From Parcubacteria group bacterium (GTDB taxonomy: Bacteria; Patescibacteriota; Patescibacteriia; Buchananbacterales; UBA6539), in assembly GCA_002687175.1 (NCBI GenBank), contig NYZP01000034.1, positions 27,951-91,950 of the forward strand: a stretch of DNA of 64,000 nucleotides, given 5' to 3'. Shown piece by piece: positions 3,441 to 46,417 of this stretch; within the stretch, counting starts at the first letter, position 1, and each line of letters opens with the position of its first letter. The notes under the pieces were generated by a model. That model saw only the letters and a list, made by a program, of their open reading frames with translations, did no database searches and was not told where the DNA came from. The position numbers and the translations under genes are program-made.

Positions 3441-6400
3441 ATGAAATTTAGAAACAAAATTATTTTTCTACTAATTCCCTTGTTGCTGTTTTTAGGGTTA
3501 CTTGGTTTTGGCTTAACAGTTTTTGCCTTAGACTCTTGTCTGCCGACACAAGAGGGAACTACTCGTGATTGTGCTTTGCAAGAAGGTGTTTGTCAGGGTT
3601 CAGTTGAGTGGTGCTTGGGCGGTTTTTGGCAAGGCTGTGGCGCGCCAAATTATGGTGTTAACTATGAACTGTTTGAACTGAGTTGTGATGATACCTTGGA
3701 TAACGACTGTGATGGGTTAACAGACACCGAAAGTGGTATTGAAGATTCTGACTGTTGGTGTACTGTTGATTTTACACTGGCGGAAACCGAGTGTAATGAT
3801 GGTATTGATAATGATGGTGATACATTTTGTGATTTTGCAGGTTGTTGTGATGATGGCTCTGGTGAGCCACAGGCAAGTTGTAGTGGTACTTGGCTAGAAC
3901 CGGATCTTGGTTGTAACTCTGGCCAAGACAACAGCGAACTTAGTGCTAATACTATCTGTGGTAATCTTGTCTGTGAATTTGGGGAATCGTGCGCCGCTGA
4001 CTGTTCAACCGAAGCTTTTTGTAATGACGGGGTAGATAACGAAGAAAATGGCGAGGCTGATTGTGGCGACTCGGCATGCCTGGGTCAAGCTGACGGCACG
4101 GGCAGAATTTGTTGTTCTGGTGATGCCCAATGTGGCGGCTGTCAATACTGTCAACAAGGTCTACTAACAGAAGAGGCTGAATATGGTAATGGATCTACAA
4201 ATTTTATTAATCGTTGTGAGGTTCAAATAAATGGACCAAGTGGACGTTTATGTAATAATGACTGTTCTTTTTGTGATAATGGTTTTTGCACCAACAGAGA
4301 TGAAGGCGATACTACGGAATGTACCAGTGGATTTGTCTGCGATGAGCCTCCATCAGTAACTGATCCACCAACGGCGTCTTGCATATTAGCGATAACACCA
4401 TTTATTGCAACAACTTTTACTTCTCTTGGTATTGAGGCGGTAAATGGTGGAGCCCCTCCCAACCCAAACACTCTTATTATTTCAAATAGCGGAACCGGAA
4501 TTTTAGACTGGACTGCAACCGTAGATGTTCCCTGGCTTTCTTTAAATATTGCCAACGGTGGCAATGGACCAACAGAAGTTATTGTCTCTTACGATATTAA
4601 TGGCATGTCGGTTGGGTCTAATGTTGGCACAATTACTATTACCGACGATACCGCTACAAACGTTCCATTTTATATAACCATTACTTTAACCATTCAAGCA
4701 CCAACTATAGAGTTATCACCAACATTTTTTGAGGTTGAGGCAATGGAAGGTGATACACCAGCCAGCCAAACCTTGACCATTCAAAATAGTGGTGACGCTG
4801 TTTTAAATTGGCTGGCCGAAAATTTACCGGGCTGGCTTACCATTTTGCCATCTGGAGGAACTGTTACTGATGGTAGTTCAGAAAATGTTACTTTATCTTT
4901 TTCAGATTCTTTAATTCCTGATATTTATACTGATACGTTTGATATTTCAGATCCCAATGCCAGTAATGATCCTCAAACTGCAGATGTTGTATTAACCATT
5001 AATTCAGCACCATTACCAGTAATTTCTCTGTCTCAGACAACTTTTAGTAATTCAGCAGTTGAGGGTAGTAGTAATCCTGCTGATGAAATTTTAACTATCA
5101 CTAATAGTGGTGACAGTGGCTCAATCCTTACTTGGAGTTTTAGTGATAGTCCACCAGCTTGGTTAAGTTTTATTGGAGCTACCAGTGGCACATTAGCCCA
5201 AGGTGAGTCGGACAATGTTACCTTAAGATATGATATTTCAACTTTAAATCCAAGTATTAATAATTTTACTTTTGACGTAGAAGATCCAACGGCGCCAATC
5301 AGTCCTCAGACTGTTTCAGTTGATTTAGAAATTACCGCCGTGCCCGTGGCAACTATTTCACTGACTCCAGGTAGTTTTATAGCTAGTGCTGATGAAGGTT
5401 CCTCGCCGGCTAATCAAATTTTAAATATTGAAAATTCTGGTGGCGTTGGTTCCACGCTTACCTGGTCAGTGAGCAATGATCAGAGCTGGTTAAGTTTGTC
5501 ACCAGCTAGCGGCACAATTACTGCACCCGGTTCTACCAATGTTACTTTAAATTATACAACCGAGGGACTGGTTGATGGACCTCACTCAGACACAATTACC
5601 GTTGACGCCCCCGGTGCTACTAACGATCCGCAAACCGCCAGCGTGGATCTCACAATTATAAATGTTCCAGTCACTTTTCTTTTAACAGTTACTACTGATG
5701 GTGGGGGAACCGGCTCAGTTGTAACTGTTCCCTCAGGAGACATTAACTGTCCAGGAGACTGTAATCAAACTTATAACGAAGGTACTTTAGTTGAGTTAGC
5801 CGCTTCACCTGATGGTGGTTCTACTTTTAGGGAGTGGTCTGCTAACTGTGTAGTTAATGGAAATGGCAACTGTGAAGTTACAATGGATGCTGCTAGAGCA
5901 GTAACTGCCACTTTTGATCCTATTACAGAGTGTAATAATGGTAGTGATGATGATCTAGATGGCGACATAGATCTGCTAGACGGTGGTTGTGATGGTCCAT
6001 TAGACAACGATGAAACAAACTGTGGTGATGCCGTTTGTGAGGGTGGGGAATCTTGTTTAGCCGCTAGTTGTGCGGTCGATTGTGTTGAAGACATCCCTGG
6101 TGGTTGTACTACACTTGCCGGTGATGGGCCTGGTTTTTGTGGCAATGAATTTTGTGATCCAGGTGCTGGTGGTACCAGTGATAATGGTTGGATTTGTCAA
6201 CTTCGTGATTTTGATTGTGCTGGAACTTGTGGCCAGTGCACCGGTAGTGGTAGTTGTGAAATTAATCATAATTCTTGTACCGGCCAATGTTCTCAATGTG
6301 TATTTAATTCTGGTCCGGTATCTTATGATTGTGAGGGTGTATTTGACGAGCAAGATACCTATGGTGACCCGGGCAATAACGTTTTATGTAGTGCTGATGA

Positions 6401-20518: not shown

Positions 20519-20547
20519 TTGACAGGACATCTCCAGTATTATACAAT
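20519..20547 (+). promoter_or_regulatory. Sigma70-like promoter (TTGACA-17-TACAAT) driving the riboswitch transcript
   Basis: -35 'ttgaca' at 20519-24, a 17-nt spacer, and -10 'tacaat' at 20542-47. Confidence 0.55.
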
Positions 20548-20571
20548 CATATTACCTTAAAAAATAGTTTT

Positions 20572-20760
20572 AATTTCAGGGAAGTGAGGTGTGATTCCTC
20601 CGCTGACCCGCAACTGTGAAACCTCTATCTAAATTAGGTAAGGGGTTAAGCCAGACCACTGAAATTAGAGCTAACTATAATTCACTAAGCTCTTCGAGGT
20701 ACGAGAGTCGGTGATGTCTGATATGGACATTTTCGCTCTCCCTTGAACAGGGAGATTTTT
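20572..20760 (+). promoter_or_regulatory. Cobalamin (AdoCbl) riboswitch with an SD-sequestering terminator-like expression platform
   Basis: 'cagGGAAGtgaGGTGtgAtTCCtccGCTGaCCCGCAACTGTgAA' matches the conserved 5' core of the cobalamin riboswitch. A B12-box-like 'AAGCCAGACCACTG' lies at about 20647-20660. The 3' hairpin 'ctccc ttgaaca gggag' plus U-run (20735-20760) pairs with the 'agggag' SD 9 nt upstream of the ATG at 20766. Confidence 0.7.
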
Positions 20761-22661: not shown

Positions 22662-23177
22662 ATGTTAAAGCGAAGCTGGTTGATCCTGATAATCTTATTT
22701 TTTGGAAGTTTAGTTTTTAGTCAATCAGCTTCTGCCGTAGGTGTTGGTGTAAAACCAAAAGAAGTTCAACTGGACGTTAGAGTAGGGCAAGAAACCACGA
22801 CCGAAATTTTAGTGATTAACATTGCTAAAGAACCGGCTCTTTACCAAGTGACGGCCGATGCCTTGGAAGATGAAATCAGCATCAGCCCTCAAGATTTTAA
22901 GATGGAAGCCGACACCAATAGACTTGTAACTATTATTGTTAAGCTTAAAACGCCGGGACTGTTCAACACTAATTTGTCAGTGGTGGCGCGTCCATTAGGC
23001 GCCGGTGGCTTAACCGCCGCTTCGGGCGTAAAAGTTCCAATAACCATTACTGCTTCGGGATTTCCTTTATGGTGGTGGGGAGCAGGCCTCTTCGTTCTAG
23101 TTTGCTTAAGTTGGTTATTTAGAGTAAAATTAAAAAAGAAACTTAGAAAAGCTAAAATCAGTAACCCAGAACTATGA
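22662..23177 (+). CDS. Cell-surface protein with a signal peptide, a beta-rich domain, and a C-terminal TM anchor with a basic tail
   Basis: N-terminal 'LILIILFFGSLVFSQSASA'. C-terminal 'LWWWGAGLFVLVCLSWLFRVKLKKKLRK'. Confidence 0.45.
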   Translation: MLKRSWLILIILFFGSLVFSQSASAVGVGVKPKEVQLDVRVGQETTTEILVINIAKEPALYQVTADALEDEISISPQDFKMEADTNRLVTIIVKLKTPGLFNTNLSVVARPLGAGGLTAASGVKVPITITASGFPLWWWGAGLFVLVCLSWLFRVKLKKKLRKAKISNPEL

Positions 23178-23629
23178 AGTTAATTGCCAAAATAATTATA
23201 ATCGTTACCATATTTGCTGCTGGTTTTTATATTGGTCAACAAGCCTTGGCACCAGCAAATGGCTCTAAAGTAGTAGGTGAAGAAAATAGTGAACAAATAA
23301 CAGTCAGTTTAATGTTTGACTTTGGTGATGGTGAAGTACGAACTTTTAATGATGTGGTTTTATCAAAGAATGCGACGATGCTTGAACTTTTAGAAAAAGT
23401 AACTACTGACAATGATTTAGAATTTAGGATCACAGATTATGGTGGTGGTTTAGGAGCGTTAATTGAGTCAATTAATAATTATTCATCTGATGCTCGGAAT
23501 AATCGCTATTGGCATTTCTGGGTGAATAATGTTTACTCCGACATTGGAGCCAGTAATTACATTTTAGAAAATAGTGATGTGGTTGAATGGAAATATACTT
23601 TAAATCAATTTAATTTAATAGTTAATTAA
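23174..23629 (+). CDS. DUF4430-like protein (beta-domain of the transcobalamin/intrinsic factor family; putative cobalamin-binding)
   Basis: N-terminal TM/signal. C-terminal 'NRYWHFWVNNVYSDIGASNYILENSDVVEWKY' matches the W-x-F-x-VNG..GA..Y.L..GD.V.W.Y signature of DUF4430. The start overlaps the previous gene (ATGA). Confidence 0.55.
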   Translation: MKLIAKIIIIVTIFAAGFYIGQQALAPANGSKVVGEENSEQITVSLMFDFGDGEVRTFNDVVLSKNATMLELLEKVTTDNDLEFRITDYGGGLGALIESINNYSSDARNNRYWHFWVNNVYSDIGASNYILENSDVVEWKYTLNQFNLIVN

Positions 23630-36203: not shown

Positions 36204-36277
36204 ATAATGAGACCCTGAAACAAGTTCAGGGTCTCATTAAGAGAAATCAACATAGCGCCCCTTTAACGGGGGCGCTT

Positions 36278-36796
36278 TTGCTTAAGCAAAATATGATAAA
36301 AGAACGAAAATTAAATAGATATTCAAACTATAATTATAATTTACCAGGTTATTATTTTATTACGATATGTGTCCAGGATCGTATAAAGTATTTTGGAAAA
36401 ATTGGTGATGGTCGGATGATTTTAAATAAATACGGAAAAATTGCAATTAAATATTTAATGAAAATCCCAAATTTTTATACGAACGTTGCCATTGATGAAT
36501 TTGTGATAATACCAAATCATATTCACATTATTATTGAAATTAAATCCGTAGGGACAGAACAATGTTCTGTCCCTACGGGGGTCAAAAATATTAATTATGG
36601 TTTATTGTCAAAGGTGGTTAAATCCTTTAAAGACGTTACAACCAAAGAAATTCACGGTGCATTGAATGATTACCATTTTCAATGGCAACGTTCCTTTTAT
36701 GATCATATTATTCGAGATGAAAATGGTTTATATAATATTAGGCAATATATAATTAATAATCCTTCGCAGTGGAACAGAGACAGAAATAATGTTTAA
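36278..36796 (+). mobile_element. IS200/IS605-like Y1 (HuH) transposase, REP-associated tyrosine transposase (RAYT)-like
   Basis: HuH 'NHIHIIIE' and catalytic-Tyr region 'RSFYDHIIRDE'. GC-rich hairpins lie upstream at 36212-36270. A 33-bp perfect palindrome sits inside the CDS at 36546-36578. Confidence 0.6.
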
Positions 36797-39083: not shown

Positions 39084-39461
39084 ATGGAAAACAATAGTCA
39101 CAAAATTTTACTAGTAGAAGATGACCCCACTCTACTAGAAATGTACTCAATTAAGGCTAAAGAGGACGGTTTGAATTTAATAGAAGCCGAAGATGGCTTA
39201 ACCGGTTTAGAGTTAGCCCAACAAGAATTACCAGACGTCATTTTACTGGATATTATGATGCCTAAAATGGATGGTTTTGCGGTTTTAACAGAACTAAAAA
39301 AAGATGAGAAAACAAAAAATATTCCGGTTGTGATGTTAACTAATTTGGGCCAAAAGGCTGACGTTGAAAAAGGGAAAAAACTGGGAGCCGTTGATTATGT
39401 CGTCAAAGCTTCGATGACCCCAACTCAAGTAATTGAAAAAGCTAAATCATATTTAAAGTAA
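39084..39461 (+). CDS. Stand-alone response-regulator receiver domain
   Basis: 'ILLVEDDP' and 'VILLDIMMPKMDGF'. Confidence 0.7.
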   Translation: MENNSHKILLVEDDPTLLEMYSIKAKEDGLNLIEAEDGLTGLELAQQELPDVILLDIMMPKMDGFAVLTELKKDEKTKNIPVVMLTNLGQKADVEKGKKLGAVDYVVKASMTPTQVIEKAKSYLK

Positions 39462-40073: not shown

Positions 40074-40170
40074 GTAGATCATATAACATACAGCATGTAG
40101 CAATTAATGTTCAACAAGGCGCAGAAATGCGTTTTTTTGATTATATTTAATCTGGAGAGTTATTTTTATT

Positions 40171-40522
40171 GTCATCCCTGCGAAAGCAGGGATCCAGAAA
40201 TACTATGAGAAGTTACTATACATATATTTTAGCCAGTAAGAGAAATGGAACGCTTTATATTGGTGTTACTAATGATTTAGTCAGGAGAGTTAATGAGCAC
40301 AAAGAAGGTTTGATTAAAGGTTTTACCAGAAAATATAAAGTTAAAATGCTAGTTTATTATGAAGAATTTGATGACATTGGCTTGGCAATTCAAAGGGAGA
40401 AAAATTTGAAGAAGTGGAAGCGCAATTGGAAGTTACTATTAATTGAAAACTTTAATTCTAACTGGGAGGATTTGTACTTCAAGTTATTTTAAATGCTGGA
40501 TCCCTGCTTTCGCAGGGATGAC
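40171..40522 (+). mobile_element. Compact 352-bp mini-element: a GIY-YIG nuclease ORF bracketed by 27-bp perfect inverted-repeat hairpins
   Basis: IR-L 'gtcatccctgcgaaagcagggatccag' (40171-97) and IR-R 'ctggatccctgctttcgcagggatgac' (40496-522). Each is also a GAAA-tetraloop hairpin. Confidence 0.6.
40205..40492 (+). CDS. Small GIY-YIG endonuclease (UPF0213-like)
   Basis: 'YYTYILASKRNGTLYIGVTNDLVRRVNEH' GIY-YIG motif. The true start is the ATG at 40205. Confidence 0.7.
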   Translation: MRSYYTYILASKRNGTLYIGVTNDLVRRVNEHKEGLIKGFTRKYKVKMLVYYEEFDDIGLAIQREKNLKKWKRNWKLLLIENFNSNWEDLYFKLF

Positions 40523-40727
40523 AAATAAAGGAGCAGTACGTTAAATAGTTGCTACAGGCTTTGTGCTATATGTTACATGAAAATAGCCTAAAATAGGCTG
40601 TTTTTTTATTATGGTCGCCAAAAGTGTACTGGACAATGATGGACAGTGGATATCTTATGCTTGACAATGCTGGACAAGATCTTTAAAATTAAGTCAAGTT
40701 GACCAGATTGGTCGCTAAACAAAAACT

Positions 40728-40904
40728 GTGCCAAACTATAATGTTCTAACCCTCGAAGAGGTTGCAAAGATCATGAAGGTAAGCCTTAAAACGGTTTACC
40801 GCTGGGTTGGTTCAAAAAAATTACGGGCAGCGAAGATAGGGCACAAAACATATCGGGTTTTAGAGAAAGATCTAATTAAGTTCATAAACGATCATATGGA
40901 ATGA
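40728..40904 (+). CDS. Unannotated 58-aa excisionase/MerR-type HTH DNA-binding protein (Xis family)
   Basis: 'LTLEEVAKIMKVSLKTVYRWVGSKKLRAAKIGHKTYRV' matches the excisionase-family HTH. GTG start at 40728, stop at 40902-04. Absent from the ORF track, presumably because it is short. Two approximately 17-bp direct repeats lie upstream at 40633-40680. Confidence 0.55.
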   Translation: MPNYNVLTLEEVAKIMKVSLKTVYRWVGSKKLRAAKIGHKTYRVLEKDLIKFINDHME

Positions 40905-40955
40905 ACTGATTAGGTCTTTTTTGCTACCTAATTTTTATAAGTCGTTAGTTAAACA

Positions 40956-41273
40956 ATGTCACCATACTTAAGTAAAAATTACCGCTTCAAGAAAAAGCCA
41001 CGACTGCAATCGCTTCGTGAAGCCGGGCTTTTTGTTGGCTTTTCTATGTTGGCGATAATGTTGACCTTGTTTGTCTTGGGATGGATTGCCTATGCCTTTG
41101 AAGCTCAAGCCGCTTCGGGAATTAACCAACAGCTAAACTACCAGGGTAAGATGACCGATTCGTCTGGGTTGACCGTATCAGATGCTTCATGGAACTTTAA
41201 GTTTGAACCAGAGGCCACCACCGAAGAGATTGTGGTTGAGGATGGAGACACTGTGCAAACAAGTTCACTATAA
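40956..41273 (+). CDS. Hypothetical small membrane protein
   Basis: One TM helix 'LFVGFSMLAIMLTLFVLGWIAYAF'. Confidence 0.35.
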   Translation: MSPYLSKNYRFKKKPRLQSLREAGLFVGFSMLAIMLTLFVLGWIAYAFEAQAASGINQQLNYQGKMTDSSGLTVSDASWNFKFEPEATTEEIVVEDGDTVQTSSL

Positions 41274-41332
41274 CGTGTTATCCTGAACTTGTTTCAGTAT
41301 CTCATTCAACGAGATTCCGAAACAAGTTCGGA

Positions 41333-42967
41333 ATGACAATAAAAAGGTTTAAACTCATGTTTAAAATAAAAATCGCATTACTAACAGTACTGTCCGGAGT
41401 AGTTATGTGGCTGGCCCATAATTATTCTATTTTGTGGTTCGTCTCTTTGATTGGTTTAATTCCAATACTGTATATAGTCTACACCCAAAATTTAAAGCAT
41501 TATCAAAATTTTTTGGTTGGTTTTGTTGCCGGTACTATCATGCTGGCCGGTGTCATGCTGTGGCACTGGAATATGTTGCCGCTTGATTGGGCTGGCATTA
41601 ACAATTCAGCCAGCGAACTATTTTTAGTTTTTTATATCTGGATATTGTCGTCAACTACCGCTGGCCTCATTGGGCTTTGGACATTAGGCTTAGGATATTT
41701 AAAAAGAAATAATTGGTTTGACTTATTATTGGCTCCGGCGTTGTGGGTGGTGATTGAGTTTATTAGATCAATTGTTGTTTCAATTTTGTGGCATGGCGAG
41801 GGCTCGACAATTGGATCACACTGGAGCATATCTTTTGTTGGTTATGATCTAGCAGCAGCAAATTTTTTGTTACCATTTGGGGCCATCGGCGGCGTGTACA
41901 TTTTAAGTTTCATCGTTATTCTGTTTAACCTACTTTTATTTTTTTATTTCAGAGATTATTTAGAAAAACAGAATTTAACAATTCATTATAAATTAGCCGG
42001 GGTTGTTATTTTAGTTATTGTTATTTTTAACATTGGCAATTCAATTATTCGTCATCAGTCAGAGCCAGAAAAAATTGTTCCAGTGGCTGTGGTTAATACT
42101 TACTTAGAATCATTTTCGCGAATAACCAAAGATCAGTTTGGAGATATCACTGATAGCCATAAGGCTCTGCTTAGCACTATCAAAAAGGAGAATCGTTCTC
42201 CTAAAATAATAATTTTTCCTGAAGACTCAAGGTTCTTAGTTGGTTTAACAGTTGCCGAAGAACAAAATTTTTTAAAAGAAATATTTAATGATCAAGAAGT
42301 TTTAATTATTGATTCTGCAAGAATACCCAAAGAAGAAGGCAAACCAGTAGCTTTAACTTTTAATTTTTTAAACATCACGGAAGATCAAATCGTTTTTTCT
42401 GATAAACAATTTTTAATACCACATGGTGAATACATTCCTTATTTAAGCGCCGGTATTCTTAGATTAACCGGCAATGGCGAATGGGTAGATAATTTCAGTG
42501 CCTCCCGTGGATTTTCCAAAGGGAAAAATGTAAAATTAGTTGACTTTATGGATTTTAAAATTGGTGCCTTGGCCTGCTCCGAAGCAATGTCATTATCATT
42601 TAATCGTAAACTGGTTGATCAAGGAACTGGTTTTATTATAAACATAGCCTCACACTCATTATTTAACGGTTCAAAAATTTTGTATAATCAGATTTTAAAC
42701 ATGGGCAAGTTACGGGCTATTGAAAATAATCGATACTACGTTCATGCCGGAAATTTTGTTCCTTCGTTTGTTATTGATAATCAAGGCAGGTTAGTTCAAG
42801 AGTCTGATTGGGGAGAGGATTCATTAATTTATCAAGATATTGCGATTATTGAAAGTGATTCTTTCTACAACCGTTTTGGACGCTGGATCTTTTCTGGATT
42901 ATTCATACTAATTATCTTCATAGGTCTATTAGTTAGATTAAAGCCTAAATTTGGGAAATATATCTGA
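41333..42967 (+). CDS. lnt: Apolipoprotein N-acyltransferase-like (TM domain plus CN-hydrolase domain)
   Basis: Six to seven N-terminal TM helices. C-terminal nitrilase-fold domain with a Cys in 'IGALACSE'. Confidence 0.5.
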   Translation: MTIKRFKLMFKIKIALLTVLSGVVMWLAHNYSILWFVSLIGLIPILYIVYTQNLKHYQNFLVGFVAGTIMLAGVMLWHWNMLPLDWAGINNSASELFLVFYIWILSSTTAGLIGLWTLGLGYLKRNNWFDLLLAPALWVVIEFIRSIVVSILWHGEGSTIGSHWSISFVGYDLAAANFLLPFGAIGGVYILSFIVILFNLLLFFYFRDYLEKQNLTIHYKLAGVVILVIVIFNIGNSIIRHQSEPEKIVPVAVVNTYLESFSRITKDQFGDITDSHKALLSTIKKENRSPKIIIFPEDSRFLVGLTVAEEQNFLKEIFNDQEVLIIDSARIPKEEGKPVALTFNFLNITEDQIVFSDKQFLIPHGEYIPYLSAGILRLTGNGEWVDNFSASRGFSKGKNVKLVDFMDFKIGALACSEAMSLSFNRKLVDQGTGFIINIASHSLFNGSKILYNQILNMGKLRAIENNRYYVHAGNFVPSFVIDNQGRLVQESDWGEDSLIYQDIAIIESDSFYNRFGRWIFSGLFILIIFIGLLVRLKPKFGKYI

Positions 42968-43260
42968 ATCCTTGACTAATTTAATTAGATAGATTATCAT
43001 AATTAAAACTATGACTTCCCAACGAATTAACATTTCGACTGCGCTCAGTGCAGGCATTATTATTAACATTATTATCCAGCCTTTAGGTGGAAGTCTTTCG
43101 ATGAAGTAAACACTAAGCAATACGATCTGACAGACCTTCCACCAGGAAGGTTTTTTTGATTGTTTTGCTTGGGCAGAACATATACTTAGGAGGAGGGCAC
43201 CTGCTCTTTGTCACAACTTAACCAGAAACTTTGGAAAATTTACAGAAGGAGAAACATAAC

Positions 43261-43890
43261 ATGAGTTCAGGTAGTCTTTTAATGAATGACGTTCCCGACG
43301 GGAGTGTAGCTACTCGTTTTCAAACTGAAGACTATATTAAGGCGATGATCGGTACCATTGATTTTGGTGACGTAACGATTGGACCGGAAATTGTAACAAA
43401 GGTTTTCCACCGTTGTCAGGAATTGGCAACTCAAGGAGTTACCTTTGACGAAGCTCAAGCTTCGTTTATACTACTGGTCTTGGAAGAATTTGGTTTAGAG
43501 TTAGCCCAGTTCAAATGCTTGTCCGGTCAGGTTACAGTATCTTTTGGCGAGGACAGAGAATCGATATGTGACGCAACCATAAAGGTTGATACCGGCGTCG
43601 ATGAGCCAAAGCATGTAGCTTATGAGGATGCTACACCAGTTAGAGCCTTAAACGGTGCTTTGCAGAAAGTTGTTGTTTCTTTAGCTGACGGGATTACCTT
43701 AGGCAATGTTGTTAAGGAACGTATTCCAACTTCTGATGGCGCTCCAGAGGTTTATCGGGCTACTATTACCTTGGAAAATTGTACTGATACGTGGACCTCT
43801 GTTGGCGTTGGACCGAACCTGATTGAGGCCTTTATTAAGGCCTTGCTCGATGGCTATCGCTATGCCGCTTATCGGCACAATTTGCCATAA
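43261..43890 (+). CDS. Hypothetical protein with a LeuA-allosteric-domain-like C-terminus
   Basis: 'TDTWTSVGVGPNLIEAFIKALLDGY' resembles the GxGPxxAxxxAL motif of the 2-isopropylmalate synthase regulatory domain. SD 'aaggag' precedes the ATG at 43261. Terminator at 43899-43937. Confidence 0.35.
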   Translation: MSSGSLLMNDVPDGSVATRFQTEDYIKAMIGTIDFGDVTIGPEIVTKVFHRCQELATQGVTFDEAQASFILLVLEEFGLELAQFKCLSGQVTVSFGEDRESICDATIKVDTGVDEPKHVAYEDATPVRALNGALQKVVVSLADGITLGNVVKERIPTSDGAPEVYRATITLENCTDTWTSVGVGPNLIEAFIKALLDGYRYAAYRHNLP

Positions 43891-43956
43891 TCCTGGTTAA
43901 AATGCTCATAGCTGGTCACTTTTTAGTGATCAGCTTTTTTTGTGGAAAAGTAAGAT

Positions 43957-44010
43957 TTTCCGCCAGAGGTAGCCTGTCCGTCCTCTGGCGGAGATGCGCC
44001 TATGGCGCAG
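43957..44010. repeat. Intergenic GC-rich palindromic units (CCGCCAGAGG...CCTCTGGCGG; GCGCC-tat-GGCGC)
   Basis: 10-bp stem 'ccgccagagg'/'cctctggcgg' (43961-70 / 43982-91). Same family as the in-frame units at 33941 and 63188. Confidence 0.6.
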
Positions 44011-44255
44011 ACATCCATAAATTAATATAAATTACTAATATAGATGTGGGGTTGACATCATCTGCCAGTCTGTTAACCTAACTATATGAGATTTATTGCT
44101 CGAACAAACCTACTGGGTTTACTGCTAGCCAACAGCTAGGTGGTTTGAGTTGTAGATAAAAAATACAAGTAATCAATCATCTAGTTCAAATCTGGGCTAG
44201 TTTTTTTGTTGTTTGAAATTGAATTGATCTTTTAACAAAAAGAGGAGAATATATT

Positions 44256-44636
44256 ATGGCCAGTATGGAGTCTTGCTGGGAACTAGCTGATGTTAGATTA
44301 TCTACTGTTAGGTGTGGAGAACAAATGGTTTTTGTTAATCTAAGATTTGGTCAGGAAAATCATAATGATACCTCAAATGACAGCTGTCTTTTTTCAGCCG
44401 TGATTAAAGCTATTGCCAGAGCAACAGACATTGAACTATCTTTGATTCAATTTAATGTCCGGCAGGTAAATGATCACGAGGTAGAAGTTCACGCTACAAT
44501 TCGCAGCAATGGACAATTAACTATTGTTACTGGAATTGATAATGATATTATCTCAGCTTTTGCCAAGGTGGTGGTTGCGGCTGTTAACCGTTCTTTAGAG
44601 AAAAATAAGACGCCAGGATTTATACCTGGATGTTAA
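44256..44636 (+). CDS. Hypothetical protein, LeuA-allosteric-domain-like (paralog-like of 43261..43890)
   Basis: 'GQLTIVTGIDNDIISAFAKVVVAAVNRSL'. Confidence 0.35.
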   Translation: MASMESCWELADVRLSTVRCGEQMVFVNLRFGQENHNDTSNDSCLFSAVIKAIARATDIELSLIQFNVRQVNDHEVEVHATIRSNGQLTIVTGIDNDIISAFAKVVVAAVNRSLEKNKTPGFIPGC

Positions 44637-44689
44637 ATAGAAGATATTTTTGACCGTGTTCGTATTTATTACAGCCCGGTCTTTTTTTA

Positions 44690-44756
44690 CCCCCCACTTT
44701 TTTAATAAAAGTGTGGGGGTTTATTTGACCACGTCGTTCGCGAACGACGTGGTTGA
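44690..44756 (+). terminator. Two consecutive strong hairpins (terminators) after the 44256..44636 gene
   Basis: 'cccccac(t)ttt..aaaagtgtggggg' and the 26-bp perfect palindrome 'ccacgtcgttcgcgaacgacgtgg'. Confidence 0.5.
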
Positions 44757-44786
44757 CAAATTTTTTATATTTGTTAGAATTTAATT

Positions 44787-44940
44787 TCAACGGCGGCCTG
44801 TTGTAGTCGAAAGCTAGTGAGAGAGGTCTCTCCTCCTGGGTTCTAAGAGATCTGATGCTTTCTGAGCGTCTTCTGGAATTACAGACGCTTACCGACAAGA
44901 CTCCAGGCCGCCGTTCCTTATTTGTTCTTTATTTTTTTTG
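44787..44940 (+). ncRNA. Candidate structured small RNA with its own promoter, a 12-bp terminal closing helix and a 3' U-tract
   Basis: Promoter TTGACA (44753-58), 16-nt spacer, TAGAAT (44775-80). 5' 'aacggcggcctg' (44789-800) pairs with 3' 'caggccgccgtt' (44904-15). Internal hairpins are present. U-run at 44932-39. No plausible ORF; the minus-strand track ORF 44620..44898 is likely spurious. Confidence 0.35.
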
Positions 44941-45041
44941 GACTCTATCCATTAGCTGGCTGGTCGTGAAAGGTGCCTCTGAAATTCTTCACAAGGGGTG
45001 AAGATTATTAAAGAGGTTCACGGAACCCAGGAAAGAGTCCT

Positions 45042-45111
45042 CGGCGTGTAGCTCAGGAAGAGCGCCTTGCTTGGGGCAAGGAGGTCGTAGGTGAAAATCC
45101 TGCCACGCCAA
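45042..45111 (+). tRNA. tRNA-like element, possibly tRNA-Pro(UGG), with an atypical T-loop and a short D-loop (could be a pseudo-tRNA or att remnant)
   Basis: Acceptor 'cggcgtg'/'cacgcca' (C1-A72 mismatch), U8 A9, D-stem gctc/gagc, anticodon stem ccttg/caagg, loop 'cuUGGgg' (T33, G37), variable 'aggtc', T-stem gtagg/cctgc. The T-loop is 'tgaaaat' rather than TTCRANY. Confidence 0.3.
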
Positions 45112-45392
45112 CTCAATCTTCCGGTCCTAGACAAATTAGTCTAGGACCTTTTTTTATTTGACATATTTTTTTCAATGATATAGTCTTTATATATAGTATG
45201 AAAAAAGCAATTTCTGAAAATTTAGCCCATAAGTGGTTTTTCGTCACTTATTTTACTGACCGAACAGGTTAGCTGGCTTTATTTATAGTAATTGTTTAAA
45301 CAAAAACTTAAAAAATAAAGTCAACTGACCGACATAAGGCCAGTTTTTTGTTTTTTGGGAGTAGCATGGAACCTTATAACAGGGAGGAAAAA

Positions 45393-45866
45393 ATGGAAAC
45401 TCAAGCCGAAGGAGATATTGTGGGGTTCGAAGTCCAACTGGGTAGTGCTGTTTGTAGTGTTTTAACTACACTGCCAGATAAGAATATTACTGACCGGGAG
45501 TTGGTGATCAAGAAGGCCTTACTTTATGTCTCGGTTAATGGGTCACAAAGGGCCAAGGCCAATAAAACTATTCGTCAGTTAGTGGCGGCAACACCAGTTT
45601 GTTACGGCGTACTGCGCAAGAATACGTTTTGGCGAATAGTTTTGGACTATTTGACTGTTGAAGAAGCGGTTCAGGCATATTTGGTACGTTTCCCAAAAAC
45701 CTTGACTGATCGACAACGTCAAAGTATCATTGACTATTTGGTTGACGAAAGAAAGTTTTCATTCGAGTTAGTCAATCAGTGCATGGTTAAGTTTGGCCGC
45801 CGTCGACGAATTGGCTACAAACATAGCTGTACCCGTAAAAGTCATCATGGTTTTGTATCCAACTAG
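45393..45866 (+). CDS. Hypothetical protein
   Basis: SD 'agggagg' precedes the ATG at 45393 (the track ORF starts at 45348). Basic C-terminus. Confidence 0.35.
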   Translation: METQAEGDIVGFEVQLGSAVCSVLTTLPDKNITDRELVIKKALLYVSVNGSQRAKANKTIRQLVAATPVCYGVLRKNTFWRIVLDYLTVEEAVQAYLVRFPKTLTDRQRQSIIDYLVDERKFSFELVNQCMVKFGRRRRIGYKHSCTRKSHHGFVSN

Positions 45867-45879
45867 GAGGATAGTTTAT

Positions 45880-46074
45880 ATGAGTGGAACGTGTTTGGTG
45901 ATCAAAAAAGGTCAAGAGGATCTTATTGAGAGAGTGTTATCGGCTGCTTTTCCCGGCCTGGAATTTGAACCAGTTACTAACGATTCGAAGCATATGCTTC
46001 GGGTCAAAGGTGATTCCGACCAAGTCGGAGAAGTTCGTTCTTTGTTTAATGGAGTAGAGCAAGTTGCCTACTAG
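45880..46074 (+). CDS. Hypothetical small protein (64 aa)
   Basis: SD 'aggagg' lies 8 nt upstream of the ATG at 45880. Terminator hairpin at 46083-46113. Confidence 0.35.
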   Translation: MSGTCLVIKKGQEDLIERVLSAAFPGLEFEPVTNDSKHMLRVKGDSDQVGEVRSLFNGVEQVAY

Positions 46075-46154
46075 AAGCTTATGTCCAGAGTGTTTAACAT
46101 TCTGGACTTTTTTTATAATTGACATTGCTTTTTTTGGGTGATAAAATATAAATG

Positions 46155-46417
46155 AACTTCACTTTCATGATTGGTAAAAGTTTTGGGACAACCTGTGATA
46201 GTAGGGATTCTATAGCGGATGCAACTGTGGTTGTTAACCTGCGAACCCAAAGGTCAAACGCAGCAAATCTTACGTTAAAGTGTATCATATACTTTAAAGG
46301 TAATATTTACTGACACGGCTGGCTTTCACTTAGCCAAAATCTTTGGCCAGTTATAAGTGGAGTTCTATAATTGGGAATTCTACCAATAAAACCTGAATTT
46401 ACCAGGTTTATTTTTTT
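46155..46417 (+). ncRNA. Promoter-to-terminator noncoding transcription unit of about 260 nt (candidate sRNA or cis-regulatory leader of the downstream gene)
   Basis: TTGACA (46119-24), 17-nt spacer, TAAAAT (46142-47). Terminator 'aaacctg aattta ccaggttt' plus T9 (46388-46417). No ORF longer than a spurious minus-strand one. Internal hairpins, e.g. 'ctgcg..cgcag'. Confidence 0.35.

What the first reader, a model, noticed from the sequence alone, without database searches (positions are those of the whole stretch)
40620..40910. Unannotated Xis-family HTH gene preceded by iteron-like direct repeats, next to the GIY-YIG element
A 58-aa ORF (GTG 40728..40904) encodes a clear excisionase/MerR-type HTH ('LTLEEVAKIMKVSLKTVYRWV...'). 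It is missing from the ORF track. Upstream, 'tggacaatgatggacag' (40633-49) and 'tgacaatgctggacaag' (40664-80) form direct repeats that resemble recombination-directionality-factor or repressor binding sites. Together with the neighbouring mini-element, this looks like the scar of an integrated element.
Basis: partly seen in the sequence, partly recalled or inferred. Interest (0 to 1): 0.5.

Follow-up and report, generated by a model that had tools for sequence, protein, structure and literature searches.

The report
Conserved small BldC-like regulator with operator
The small gene is real and the repeats in front of it are real, but it is a vertically inherited DNA-binding regulator of a Patescibacteria (candidate phyla radiation) bacterium. 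The repeats sit on the gene's own promoter, and the locus is not the leftover excisionase of an integrated mobile element.

Summary
GTG 40728..40904 (+) encodes a 58-aa protein that passes Pfam HTH_17 (56 bits, cut-off 27) and TIGR01764 'excise' (44 bits, cut-off 28.8). A 17-nt direct repeat (15/17, 31 nt apart) lies upstream.

The 'scar of an integrated element' reading does not hold. In 15 related Patescibacteria/Buchananbacteria loci the gene keeps the same position: ComEC-MBL-response regulator-NDK-HTH-small membrane protein. No integrase was found from 20.7 to 49.3 kb by Pfam scan; 49.4-64 kb was read by eye as the ribosomal-protein/EF-G/EF-Tu operon. No att-like flanking repeat and no close viral relative were found. 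The GIY-YIG mini-element is absent from all relatives outside this marine population.

The repeats are conserved in all 20 homologous loci. They resolve into four GACAWT units spaced one helical turn apart. The proximal pair overlaps the -35 (TTGACA) and spacer of a near-consensus sigma-70 promoter.

The predicted fold is closest to Streptomyces BldC bound to direct repeats.

Best reading: a BldC/Xis-fold regulator that binds head-to-tail to its own promoter and autoregulates a two-gene operon. This is a new member of a known kind, of modest interest.

The parts
40728..40904 (+). Gene for a 58-aa stand-alone winged-helix DNA-binding protein (HTH_17 / MerR-Xis fold, BldC-like), GTG start
   Evidence: Pfam HTH_17 56.2 bits. 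TIGR01764 43.9 bits. 91 homologues. Codon-position differences 0.17/0.05/0.51. AF2 model pLDDT 88.8 with a beta-alpha-alpha-beta-beta-alpha fold. Top PDB fold matches are BldC 6AMA/6AMK.
40629..40645 (+). Distal operator repeat CTGGACAATGATGGACA. It holds two GACAWT-type units that start at 40632 and 40642.
   Evidence: Conserved as GACAAT-N4-GACAAT upstream of the gene in the close relatives.
40660..40676 (+). Proximal operator repeat CTTGACAATGCTGGACA. Its units start at 40663 and 40673. It overlaps the -35 hexamer and the spacer of the promoter.
   Evidence: TTGACA(A/G)T-N3-(G/A)(G/T)ACA is present at this position in all 20 loci.
40661..40689 (+). Sigma-70-type promoter: -35 TTGACA (40661-40666), 17-nt spacer, -10 TAAAAT (40684-40689). 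The inferred transcription start is near 40696.
   Evidence: 11 of 12 consensus matches. The -35 hexamer, a 17-18 nt spacer and TAnAAT are conserved across the loci. The transcription start is inferred, not measured.
40646..40660 (+). Block GTGGATATCTTATGC between the two repeats, abutting the -35. It is conserved as GTGnATAACTTATnn in about half of the relatives. Its function is unknown; it resembles a DnaA box (TGTGnATAA) and could be a UP element.
   Evidence: This is a lead only.
40579..40612 (+). Intrinsic terminator (12-bp stem plus T-run) that insulates the HTH promoter from upstream transcription. It corresponds to the ndk terminator of relatives.
   Evidence: The same arrangement, with the terminator about 22 nt before the distal repeat, is seen in L001-L007.
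40956..41273 (+). Downstream partner gene: a single-pass membrane protein (MSPYLSKNYR..., basic tail plus TM helix). It is probably co-transcribed with the HTH gene. It is 105 aa here, about 50 aa in most relatives, and fused to a surface protein of more than 1100 aa in L010 and L013.
   Evidence: No terminator was detected between 40904 and 40956. No Pfam family matches.
40164..40529 (+). Neighbour that is not part of the system: the GIY-YIG mini-element. It holds a 95-aa GIY-YIG ORF (ATG 40205..40492) between 34-nt inverted repeats, each carrying the hairpin ATCCCTGC-N4-GCAGGGAT.
   Evidence: Absent from all 20 homologous loci. Present in the contigs of the same marine population that span this interval, L022-L025.

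Best explanation
The 58-aa ORF is a genuine, vertically inherited chromosomal gene of a marine Patescibacteria (Parcubacteria/Buchananbacteria-type) bacterium. It encodes a stand-alone winged-helix protein of the MerR/Xis fold (HTH_17). Its closest characterised analogue is Streptomyces BldC.

The upstream 'iteron-like' repeats form a conserved operator. It consists of four GACAWT units in direct orientation, one helical turn (10 bp) apart within each pair, with the pairs 31 bp apart start to start. The proximal pair overlaps the -35 hexamer and spacer of the gene's own near-consensus sigma-70 promoter.

Inferred mechanism:
- Monomers bind the units head-to-tail and cooperatively, as BldC, Xis, Apl and RdfS do on direct repeats.
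- Binding occludes or distorts the -35/spacer, so the protein negatively autoregulates a two-gene operon: the HTH gene and a small single-pass membrane protein gene.
- The distal pair nucleates or stabilises the complex.

The protein is not a recombination directionality factor. The GIY-YIG mini-element upstream is a separate, recent insertion.

What is shown: gene reality, fold, synteny, conservation and position of the motif, and absence of recombinase or att sites. What is inferred: that this protein is what binds the repeats, the head-to-tail stoichiometry, and the sign of regulation (repression).
For: **Gene and fold**
- HMM support and purifying selection on the ORF.
- AF2 model with pLDDT 88.8. 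The best PDB fold matches are BldC-DNA complexes 6AMA/6AMK (TM 0.73-0.86, rmsd 1.3 A over 50 residues, 30% identity), ahead of RacA, Pukovnik Xis and RdfS.
- BldC is also the best natural sequence hit in the PDB (E = 0.008).
- In that alignment BldC's DNA-contacting Arg30 and Lys36 (PMC5859096; numbering from my recollection of the BldC sequence) correspond to R25 (invariant) and K31 (conserved in most sequences shown) of this family.

**Operator**
- The repeat is non-random (1 of 2000 shuffles). Its exact core is unique in 64 kb.
- The motif lies in + orientation upstream of the HTH gene in all 20 homologous loci, usually in two copies. It is almost absent elsewhere in about 216 kb.
- GACA, GGACA and the -10 T-A--AAT are invariant columns in otherwise diverged intergenic DNA.
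- The proximal copy coincides with TTGACA-N17-TAAAAT, 11 of 12 consensus matches. A promoter this close to consensus does not need an activator, which favours repression.
- Literature: BldC binds 2 or 4 direct repeats one helical turn apart as head-to-tail multimers (PMC5859096). RDF-fold proteins bind direct repeats one turn apart and can act as repressors or autoregulators (10.1101/784983; PMC12266134; PMC11963761).

**Not a mobile element**
- Conserved synteny, and the HTH-membrane gene pair persists at HTH identities down to 49-70% in four more distant loci.
- No recombinase domains, no att-like repeats, no close viral relatives.
- The GIY-YIG element is absent in relatives.
Against: - No binding experiment or protein-DNA model was possible. 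The repeats could be bound by another factor.
- The units (TGGACA/TTGACA) are themselves -35-like hexamers, so part of their conservation is promoter conservation.
- The distal-proximal distance varies from 30 to about 210 bp among genomes and is not always in helical phase. That is awkward for a simple continuous filament.
- The protein fails the curated BldC family model: NF033787 scores 26 bits against a cut-off of 77.
- Only 64 kb of this genome and about 8 kb per relative were scanned. A wider regulon, or an integrase further away, cannot be excluded.
- The extreme conservation of the protein suggests a role beyond autoregulating one small operon.
Confidence: 0.62

Rival explanations
1. 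First reader's reading. The protein is an excisionase or recombination directionality factor. The repeats are its binding sites in an att arm. Together with the GIY-YIG element the locus is the scar of an integrated mobile element.
For: The protein passes the TIGR01764 'excise' domain model. It hits PHROG excisionase families at domain level. Xis-type RDFs bind direct repeats one helical turn apart (10.1101/784983). A small selfish element lies 100 bp upstream.
Against: The chromosomal position is the same in 15 genomes, and the HTH-membrane gene pair is kept in four more distant loci. The protein is more conserved than the flanking housekeeping genes. No recombinase was found in 20.7-49.3 kb. 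No att-like repeats were found and no close viral homologues. The GIY-YIG element is absent from every relative. The repeats coincide with the gene's own promoter.
Confidence: 0.04
2. The repeats are not an operator for this protein. They are promoter architecture (tandem -35-like hexamers, UP-like DNA, a second weak promoter) or the site of a different regulator. The HTH protein acts elsewhere, for example as a global BldC-like or nucleoid-associated regulator.
For: All four units are TTGACA/TGGACA-like. The scan also flags a weak promoter, TGGACA-N17-GACAAT, formed by the repeats. The very high conservation of the protein fits a global role. An additional conserved block (GTGnATAACTTAT, DnaA-box-like) next to the -35 shows that another factor may act here.
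Against: The GGACA within the spacer and the distal copy, which has no -10 of its own, are conserved without any promoter function to explain them. Other consensus promoters in the window lack the AAT-N3-GGACA feature. The motif is confined to this gene's upstream region in about 216 kb, which is the classic signature of an autoregulated transcription factor. The neighbouring response regulator is receiver-only, with no DNA-binding domain.
Confidence: 0.22
3. The HTH protein and the downstream single-pass membrane protein form a functional pair beyond simple co-transcription. The basic cytoplasmic tail of the membrane protein might sequester the regulator, or tether it and its DNA to the membrane (anti-sigma-like or RacA-like logic). 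Alternatively the pair is a toxin-antitoxin-like module with a small membrane toxin.
For: The gene pair is conserved at HTH identities down to 49-70% even where upstream synteny is lost. The N-terminal ~50 aa (basic tail plus TM helix) is retained even where the rest of the gene is lost. RacA is among the fold neighbours.
Against: There is no evidence for a protein-protein contact. The 58-aa protein has no domain beyond the wHTH. Vertical inheritance, single copy per locus and fixed synteny are untypical of toxin-antitoxin modules. In some genomes the membrane protein is simply the anchor of a giant surface protein.
Confidence: 0.1

Closest known systems
BldC (Streptomyces; PDB 6AMA, 6AMK; NCBIfam NF033787), a MerR-like stand-alone wHTH developmental regulator
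   Same: - Similar size: 58 aa here, 68 aa for BldC. Both are a stand-alone wHTH with no dimerisation or effector domain.
- BldC is the best fold match (TM 0.73-0.86, 30% identity) and the best natural PDB sequence match.
- Equivalents of the DNA-contacting Arg30 and Lys36 are conserved.
- The candidate sites are 2+2 direct repeats one helical turn apart, with an AT-rich part and a G/C part. This resembles BldC's AATTxxxx(C) repeats at whiI (2 repeats) and smeA-sffA (4 repeats).
   Different: - It fails the curated BldC model (26 bits against a cut-off of 77).
- Different phylum: Patescibacteria, not Actinobacteria.
- The unit sequence is GACAWT.
- The sites sit on its own promoter, so the inference is autoregulation. 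BldC has a mapped regulon of developmental genes.
- DNA binding is untested here.
Phage/ICE excisionases of the HTH_17 fold (Pukovnik Xis gp37 4J2N, L5/D29 Gp36, RdfS 8DGL, 186 Apl)
   Same: Same fold and same Pfam/TIGR domain. They bind direct repeats cooperatively head-to-tail. Several also act as transcriptional repressors or autoregulators (D29 Gp36, RdfS, Apl).
   Different: There is no partner integrase, no att sites and no mobile-element context. The gene is vertically inherited and syntenic, and has no close viral relatives.
Classical MerR-family activators
   Same: The N-terminal wHTH fold is shared; MtaN, BmrR and HiNmlR appear as weaker fold hits. The operator lies within a promoter spacer.
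   Different: There is no coiled-coil or effector domain. The repeats are direct, not palindromic. The spacer is 17 nt rather than 19-20 nt, so a spacer-untwisting activation mechanism is unlikely.
Plasmid iterons
   Same: 17-nt direct repeats in non-coding DNA.
   Different: Only two copies are present. There is no Rep initiator gene and no origin signature: cumulative GC skew is monotonic. The repeats coincide with a promoter.

Membership tests
Pfam HTH_17 (PF12728) / TIGR01764 'excise' DNA-binding domain | Score above the curated cut-off over the full domain | tested here: met
   56.2 bits against 27, residues 6-55 matching profile positions 1-49 of 51. 43.9 bits against 28.8.
Functional excisionase / recombination directionality factor | Cognate tyrosine or serine recombinase encoded nearby in the same element | tested here: not met
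   No Phage_integrase, Recombinase or Resolvase hit in ORFs of 90 aa or more from 20.7 to 49.3 kb. 49.4-64 kb was read by eye as the ribosomal-protein/EF-G/EF-Tu operon (translations), with S12, S7 and EF-G confirmed. None was found in the flanks of L002, L003 or L022. Sequence beyond the window was not available.
Functional excisionase / recombination directionality factor | Location inside a mobile element bounded by att repeats, with patchy distribution among relatives | tested here: not met
   Fixed synteny NDK-HTH-membrane protein in 15 loci. No att-like direct repeats bracket the locus. No close homologues in viral contigs.
Functional excisionase / recombination directionality factor | Stimulates excision by bending att DNA | not testable with these tools
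   This needs a recombination assay.
BldC family (NCBIfam NF033787 HTH_BldC) | Score above the curated subfamily cut-off | tested here: not met
   26.1 bits against a cut-off of 77.
BldC family (structural/mechanistic definition of PMC5859096) | Stand-alone MerR-like wHTH without coiled-coil or effector domains | tested here: met
   58 aa with a beta1-alpha1-alpha2-beta2-beta3-alpha3 fold. The top fold hits are 6AMA/6AMK.
BldC family (structural/mechanistic definition of PMC5859096) | Binds direct repeats about one helical turn apart as head-to-tail multimers | not testable with these tools
   Candidate sites with the right geometry exist: units at 40632, 40642, 40663 and 40673. Binding itself was not tested.
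Classical MerR regulators | C-terminal coiled-coil dimerisation and effector-binding domain, with a palindromic operator in a 19-20 bp spacer | tested here: not met
   The protein ends after the wHTH. The spacer is 17 nt and the repeats are direct.
Iterons of a replication origin | Array of three or more repeats next to a Rep initiator gene and an AT-rich unwinding element | tested here: not met
   Two copies only. No Rep gene is nearby. There is no skew inflection.
MADS defence system protein MAD1 (NF047737 / PADLOC mad1) | Score above the equivalog cut-off, and presence of the other MADS genes | tested here: not met
   33.6 bits against a cut-off of 80. The PADLOC mad1 hit is domain-level only. 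The neighbours are housekeeping genes.

The most novel reading that the evidence does not exclude
This ultra-conserved 58-aa BldC-like protein, its four-unit operator and the adjacent 'MPYLSxNYR' membrane anchor form a lineage-wide regulatory module of Buchananbacteria-type Patescibacteria. In some genomes the anchor heads a surface protein of more than 1100 aa. The module would control, or be controlled by, the cell-surface or host-attachment apparatus. The DnaA-box-like block next to the -35 might couple it to the replication state. If so, it would be one of the very few identifiable dedicated transcription-factor/operator pairs in these reduced, uncultured episymbionts.
Probability: 0.15. 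Interest if true: 0.55.

Novelty: new member of a known kind. Interest (0 to 1): 0.3.

Why it matters
**Annotation.** A real, strongly conserved regulator gene is missed or truncated by gene callers because it is short, starts with GTG and has no obvious Shine-Dalgarno sequence. 'Excisionase family' labels on such stand-alone HTH_17 proteins wrongly suggest mobile elements.

**Biology.** Patescibacteria have very few recognisable transcription factors and almost no defined cis-regulatory sites. This locus offers a testable factor/operator pair: a 58-aa protein and a ~50-bp operator with four phased units on a consensus promoter. The material could be synthesised and tested in vitro without cultivating the organism. 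It would also extend the BldC/Xis head-to-tail binding mode to a new phylum.

It does not change any general concept.

Tried and rejected
- **Integrase and att search.** Pfam scans of all sizeable ORFs from 20.7 to 49.3 kb found only housekeeping, surface-protein, Y1_Tnp-like and GIY-YIG domains. A direct-repeat search over 30-50 kb found nothing att-like. The one exact 17-mer (39204 and 43492) lies inside two coding regions that both encode GLELAQ.
- **Viral relatives.** None were found.
- **Source-contig look-ups.** Exact-sequence look-ups with the 58-aa protein and with Lnt found nothing. The look-up with the 105-aa ORF worked.
- **5'-UTR hairpin.** GACCAgatTGGTC at 40701-40713 looked conserved with compensatory changes in a few relatives. 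Its folding energy is no better than shuffles (z = 0.07) and it is absent in several loci, so I dropped it.
- **Rfam.** There is no known RNA family in 39.9-41.5 kb. Only chance miRNA-like hits to hairpins appeared.
- **Second direct repeat.** D2 (TGGTCGCCAAA / TGGTCGCTAAA) is not conserved in L001 and I treat it as chance.
- **DnaA-box idea.** TGTGnATAA is enriched near the gene, but 7 of the hits lie in the conserved C-terminal coding sequence of ndk. Only the copies abutting the -35 remain as a lead.
- **Regulon search.** No further copies of the motif were found in the window or in the flanks of relatives. A TTGACAGGACAT promoter at 20519 belongs to the AdoCbl riboswitch gene and has a different geometry.
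- **Downstream protein.** It has no Pfam family, and only a handful of indexed homologues were found.

Full report

Yes. The + strand carries an ORF, GTG 40728..40904, of 58 aa: MPNYNVLTLEEVAKIMKVSLKTVYRWVGSKKLRAAKIGHKTYRVLEKDLIKFINDHME.

- It scores 56.2 bits on Pfam HTH_17 (cut-off 27), matched end to end.
- It scores 43.9 bits on NCBIfam TIGR01764, the 'excisionase family DNA-binding' domain (cut-off 28.8).
- A protein search found 91 homologues at 57-98% identity. Those that carry an organism name are all from Patescibacteria, Parcubacteria or Candidatus Buchananbacteria MAGs.
- Across 12 loci, pairwise differences by codon position are 0.17 / 0.05 / 0.51, so the ORF is under strong purifying selection.
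- The GTG start is conserved. Several relatives have an in-frame stop just upstream, which fixes the N-terminus.

Gene callers do miss the gene. Four independent assemblies of the same marine population that span the interval (L022-L025) have no call between the GIY-YIG gene and the next ORF. NCBI has a 43-aa version starting at an internal ATG (P0066, 'CMI53_05405', Parcubacteria group bacterium). That version lacks strand 1 and most of helix 1 of the domain.

The direct repeat is also real.

- Its copies are 40629-40645 (CTGGACAATGATGGACA) and 40660-40676 (CTTGACAATGCTGGACA), 15/17 identical and 31 nt apart.
- Only 1 of 2000 shuffles of the 120-nt intergenic segment gives a repeat this good.
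- The exact core GACAATNNNGGACA occurs nowhere else in the 64 kb.

**2. What are the repeats?**

Each 17-mer contains two GACA-type units 10 bp apart. That gives four units in direct orientation at 40632, 40642, 40663 and 40673, with spacings of 10, 21 and 10.

The proximal 17-mer begins with TTGACA (40661-40666). It is followed after 17 nt by TAAAAT (40684-40689). This matches 11 of 12 positions of the sigma-70 consensus and is by far the best promoter in the region. A 12-bp-stem terminator (40579-40605 plus T-run) lies about 22 nt upstream of the distal repeat.

I fetched 20 homologous loci.

- Every one has GACA(A/T)(T/A)-N3-4-(G/A/T)(G/A/T)ACA in + orientation upstream of the HTH gene, usually twice.
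- There are almost no other hits in about 216 kb on both strands.
- Anchoring on the proximal copy gives a strikingly uniform architecture in all loci: TTGACA(A/G)T-N3-(G/A)(G/T)ACAT-N6-7-TAnAAT.
- In an alignment of six diverged intergenic regions, the GACAAT, GGACA and -10 positions are invariant while the flanks are not.
- In the closest relatives the distal copy reads GACAAT-N4-GACAAT.
- The distal-proximal distance is 30-31 bp in six loci, counting the window. Elsewhere it is expanded to 50-210 bp by AT-rich, sometimes tandemly repeated, DNA.

Other consensus promoters in the window do not share the AAT-N3-GGACA feature. One of them is validated by an AdoCbl riboswitch starting at its predicted transcription start.

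So the repeats are a conserved, gene-specific cis-element superimposed on the gene's own promoter. This is what an autoregulatory operator looks like.

**3. Is it a mobile-element scar?**

No.

- *Synteny.* In 15 loci the order ComEC-metallo-beta-lactamase-receiver-only response regulator-NDK-HTH-'MPYLSxNYR' membrane protein is conserved. In L002 and L003 it is preceded by PfkB and AdoHcyase, exactly as in the window.
- *Gene pair.* In four more distant loci (HTH 49-70% identical) the upstream synteny is lost, but the HTH-membrane protein pair is kept.
- *Conservation.* The HTH protein is the most conserved protein of the neighbourhood: 76-97% identity, against NDK 37-78%, MBL 38-61%, ComEC 44-76% and the response regulator 63-78%.
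- *Recombinases.* Pfam scans of all ORFs of 90 aa or more from 20.7 to 49.3 kb found no integrase, recombinase or resolvase. I read 49.4-64 kb by eye, without a family scan, as the ribosomal-protein/EF-G/EF-Tu operon (translations). One search confirms S12, S7 and EF-G.
- *att sites.* No att-like direct repeats bracket the locus.
- *tRNA.* The only tRNA (Pro, 45042-45112) has no duplicated fragment.
- *Viral relatives.* No close relative exists in 2.9 million viral contigs.

The GIY-YIG gene (95 aa from ATG 40205) lies between 34-nt inverted repeats, 40164-40197 and 40496-40529. They are 94% complementary and each is itself a hairpin. This element is absent from all 20 homologous loci, including L001, whose HTH is 96.6% identical. 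It is present in the contigs of the window's own population that span the interval (L022-L025). It is therefore a recent, independent insertion between ndk and the original terminator. It does not touch the operator or promoter.

**4. What is the protein like?**

The AlphaFold2 model, built with a 41-sequence alignment, is confident (pLDDT 88.8). It shows the beta1-alpha1-alpha2-beta2-beta3-alpha3 winged helix of MerR/Xis proteins.

Foldseek against the PDB ranks the Streptomyces BldC-DNA complexes 6AMA and 6AMK first (TM 0.73-0.86, rmsd 1.3 A over 50 residues, 30% identity). A viral small-terminase HTH, RacA, mycobacteriophage Pukovnik Xis and RdfS follow. By sequence, BldC (E = 0.008) and Pukovnik Xis (E = 0.014) are the best natural PDB hits.

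In that alignment BldC's Arg30 (in TVTRW) and Lys36 correspond to R25 and K31 here. The residue numbers rest on my recollection of the BldC sequence. The paper identifies these as the base-contacting residues (PMC5859096). R25 is invariant and K31 is conserved in most sequences shown.

BldC is a 68-residue stand-alone MerR-like wHTH. It binds two (whiI) or four (smeA-sffA) direct repeats one helical turn apart as cooperative head-to-tail multimers. Each repeat has an AT-rich part read through the minor groove and a C-G pair read by Arg30. Read on the bottom strand, the units here are CATTGTCC, which has the same flavour as BldC's CATTTGCAC and GATTTCCCC. That is a resemblance, not a test.

Related Xis-fold proteins (186 Apl, D29 Gp36, RdfS) also bind phased direct repeats and act as repressors or autoregulators.

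**5. Most likely mechanism**

Shown:
- a near-consensus promoter;
- four phased direct-repeat units, two of them on the -35/spacer;
- a BldC-like protein encoded immediately downstream;
- exclusive co-occurrence of motif and gene.

Inferred:
- The protein binds the units head-to-tail. The distal pair supplies cooperativity, as a continuous five-protomer filament across the degenerate middle unit in the 31-bp arrangement, or by bending or looping where the spacer is expanded.
- It competes with sigma region 4, or distorts the spacer, and so gives negative autoregulation.
- The promoter's closeness to consensus argues against a need for activation.
- The downstream gene starts 52 nt after the HTH stop with no terminator between, and 20-50 nt in most relatives. 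It is probably co-transcribed and co-regulated.

The downstream gene encodes a basic cytoplasmic tail plus one TM helix. It is about 50 aa in most genomes, 105 aa here, and is the N-terminus of surface proteins of more than 1100 aa in L010 and L013. It has no Pfam family.

I put about 0.6 on the autoregulation model as a whole. I put more than 0.95 on 'real conserved chromosomal wHTH gene with a conserved cis-element' and about 0.9 on 'not an RDF'.

**6. Rivals**

(a) RDF or scar of an integrated element: see section 3; about 0.04.

(b) The repeats are promoter architecture or the site of another factor, and the protein acts elsewhere as a global or nucleoid-associated regulator. The units are -35-like, a further conserved block (GTGnATAACTTAT, overlapping a relaxed DnaA-box TGTGnATAA) abuts the -35 in about half the loci, and the protein's conservation is extreme. 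About 0.22.

(c) A functional HTH-membrane protein pair, by sequestration or tethering, or as a toxin-antitoxin-like module. About 0.1.

These are not fully exclusive of the main model.

**7. Comparison with known families, and novelty**

The protein is a member of the HTH_17 / 'excise' domain family (tested, met). It is not a member of the curated BldC subfamily (26 bits against 77; tested, not met). It is not a classical MerR (no coiled-coil or effector domain, direct repeats, 17-nt spacer). It is not a functional RDF by context, and the repeats are not iterons.

It most probably works like BldC. I found no paper describing this Patescibacteria family or its operator.

Verdict: a new member of a known kind. 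It is useful as an annotation correction and as a rare, experimentally tractable transcription-factor/operator pair in the candidate phyla radiation, but it is not conceptually surprising. Interest 0.3.

Noticed in passing
window 40164-40529: GIY-YIG mini-element. A 95-aa GIY-YIG ORF (ATG 40205..40492) is flanked by 34-nt inverted repeats (94% complementary), each containing the hairpin ATCCCTGC-N4-GCAGGGAT and ending in GGGATGACA. It is absent from all related loci but fixed in this marine population. A second terminator (40116-40135) lies between ndk and the element.
   Followed up: partly
window 36207-36238, 41282-41298, 41312-41338: A family of REP-like hairpins shares the loop/stem core (C/T)(C/T)GAAACAAGTTC(A/G)G. 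One follows the AdoHcyase stop. Two sit at the junction between the truncated membrane-protein gene and lnt; the last ends in GGAATGACA and contains the lnt ATG. It has the same ...GG(A/G)ATGACA tail as the GIY-YIG inverted repeats.
   Followed up: partly
window 36278-36796: A 172-aa ORF with a weak Y1_Tnp (IS200-like / REP-associated tyrosine transposase-like) domain (23.4 bits, cut-off 23) lies between AdoHcyase and ComEC and overlaps the ComEC start. Relatives have a minus-strand 103-114-aa ORF at this position instead. It may be linked to the REP-like hairpins.
   Followed up: no
window 40646-40660 and the equivalent position in L008, L012-L018: A conserved block GTGnATAACTTATnn abuts the -35 of the HTH promoter. 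It overlaps a relaxed DnaA-box (TGTGnATAA). The distant locus L019 has TTATACACA upstream and a perfect TTATCCACA inside a palindrome in the 5' UTR. Many other TGTGGATAA hits near the gene lie in the ndk coding sequence. It is unexplained.
   Followed up: partly
window 40956-41273; L010 from 4190; L013 from 4192: The gene after the HTH varies greatly in length: about 50 aa (tail plus TM) in most genomes, 105 aa here (first 84 aa conserved), 228 to over 299 aa in L002 and L001, and over 1100 aa in L010 and L013. The N-terminal 50 aa are always retained. No Pfam family matches.
   Followed up: partly
L010 about 3735-3945; L003 5890-5960: In some relatives the DNA between the distal and proximal operator copies is expanded by AT-rich tandem repeats. 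L010 has about six copies of a 31-nt unit, and L003 has two copies of a 23-nt unit.
   Followed up: no
window 43000-46400: A stretch of low coding density has large intergenic gaps. It holds two stand-alone LeuA_dimer-domain ORFs (43231-43890 and 44256-44636), tRNA-Pro (45042-45112) and several unassigned ORFs. Relatives have full-length LeuA-like synthase genes, and similar small ORFs, downstream of the HTH pair.
   Followed up: no
window 20519-20717: A consensus promoter (TTGACA-N17-TACAAT, with GGACAT directly after the -35) is followed by an AdoCbl riboswitch (20553-20717, 57.6 bits). Both lie upstream of a 625-aa prenyltransferase-toroid-like surface protein; a downstream ORF in the same gene run (23174-23629) carries a DUF4430 domain.
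   Followed up: no
window 39204-39220 and 43492-43508: An exact 17-nt direct repeat, GGTTTAGAGTTAGCCCA, lies 4288 nt apart. Both copies are in frame and encode GLELAQ, one in the response-regulator gene and one in the 219-aa LeuA_dimer-like ORF. This is probably coincidence and is not att-like.
   Followed up: partly
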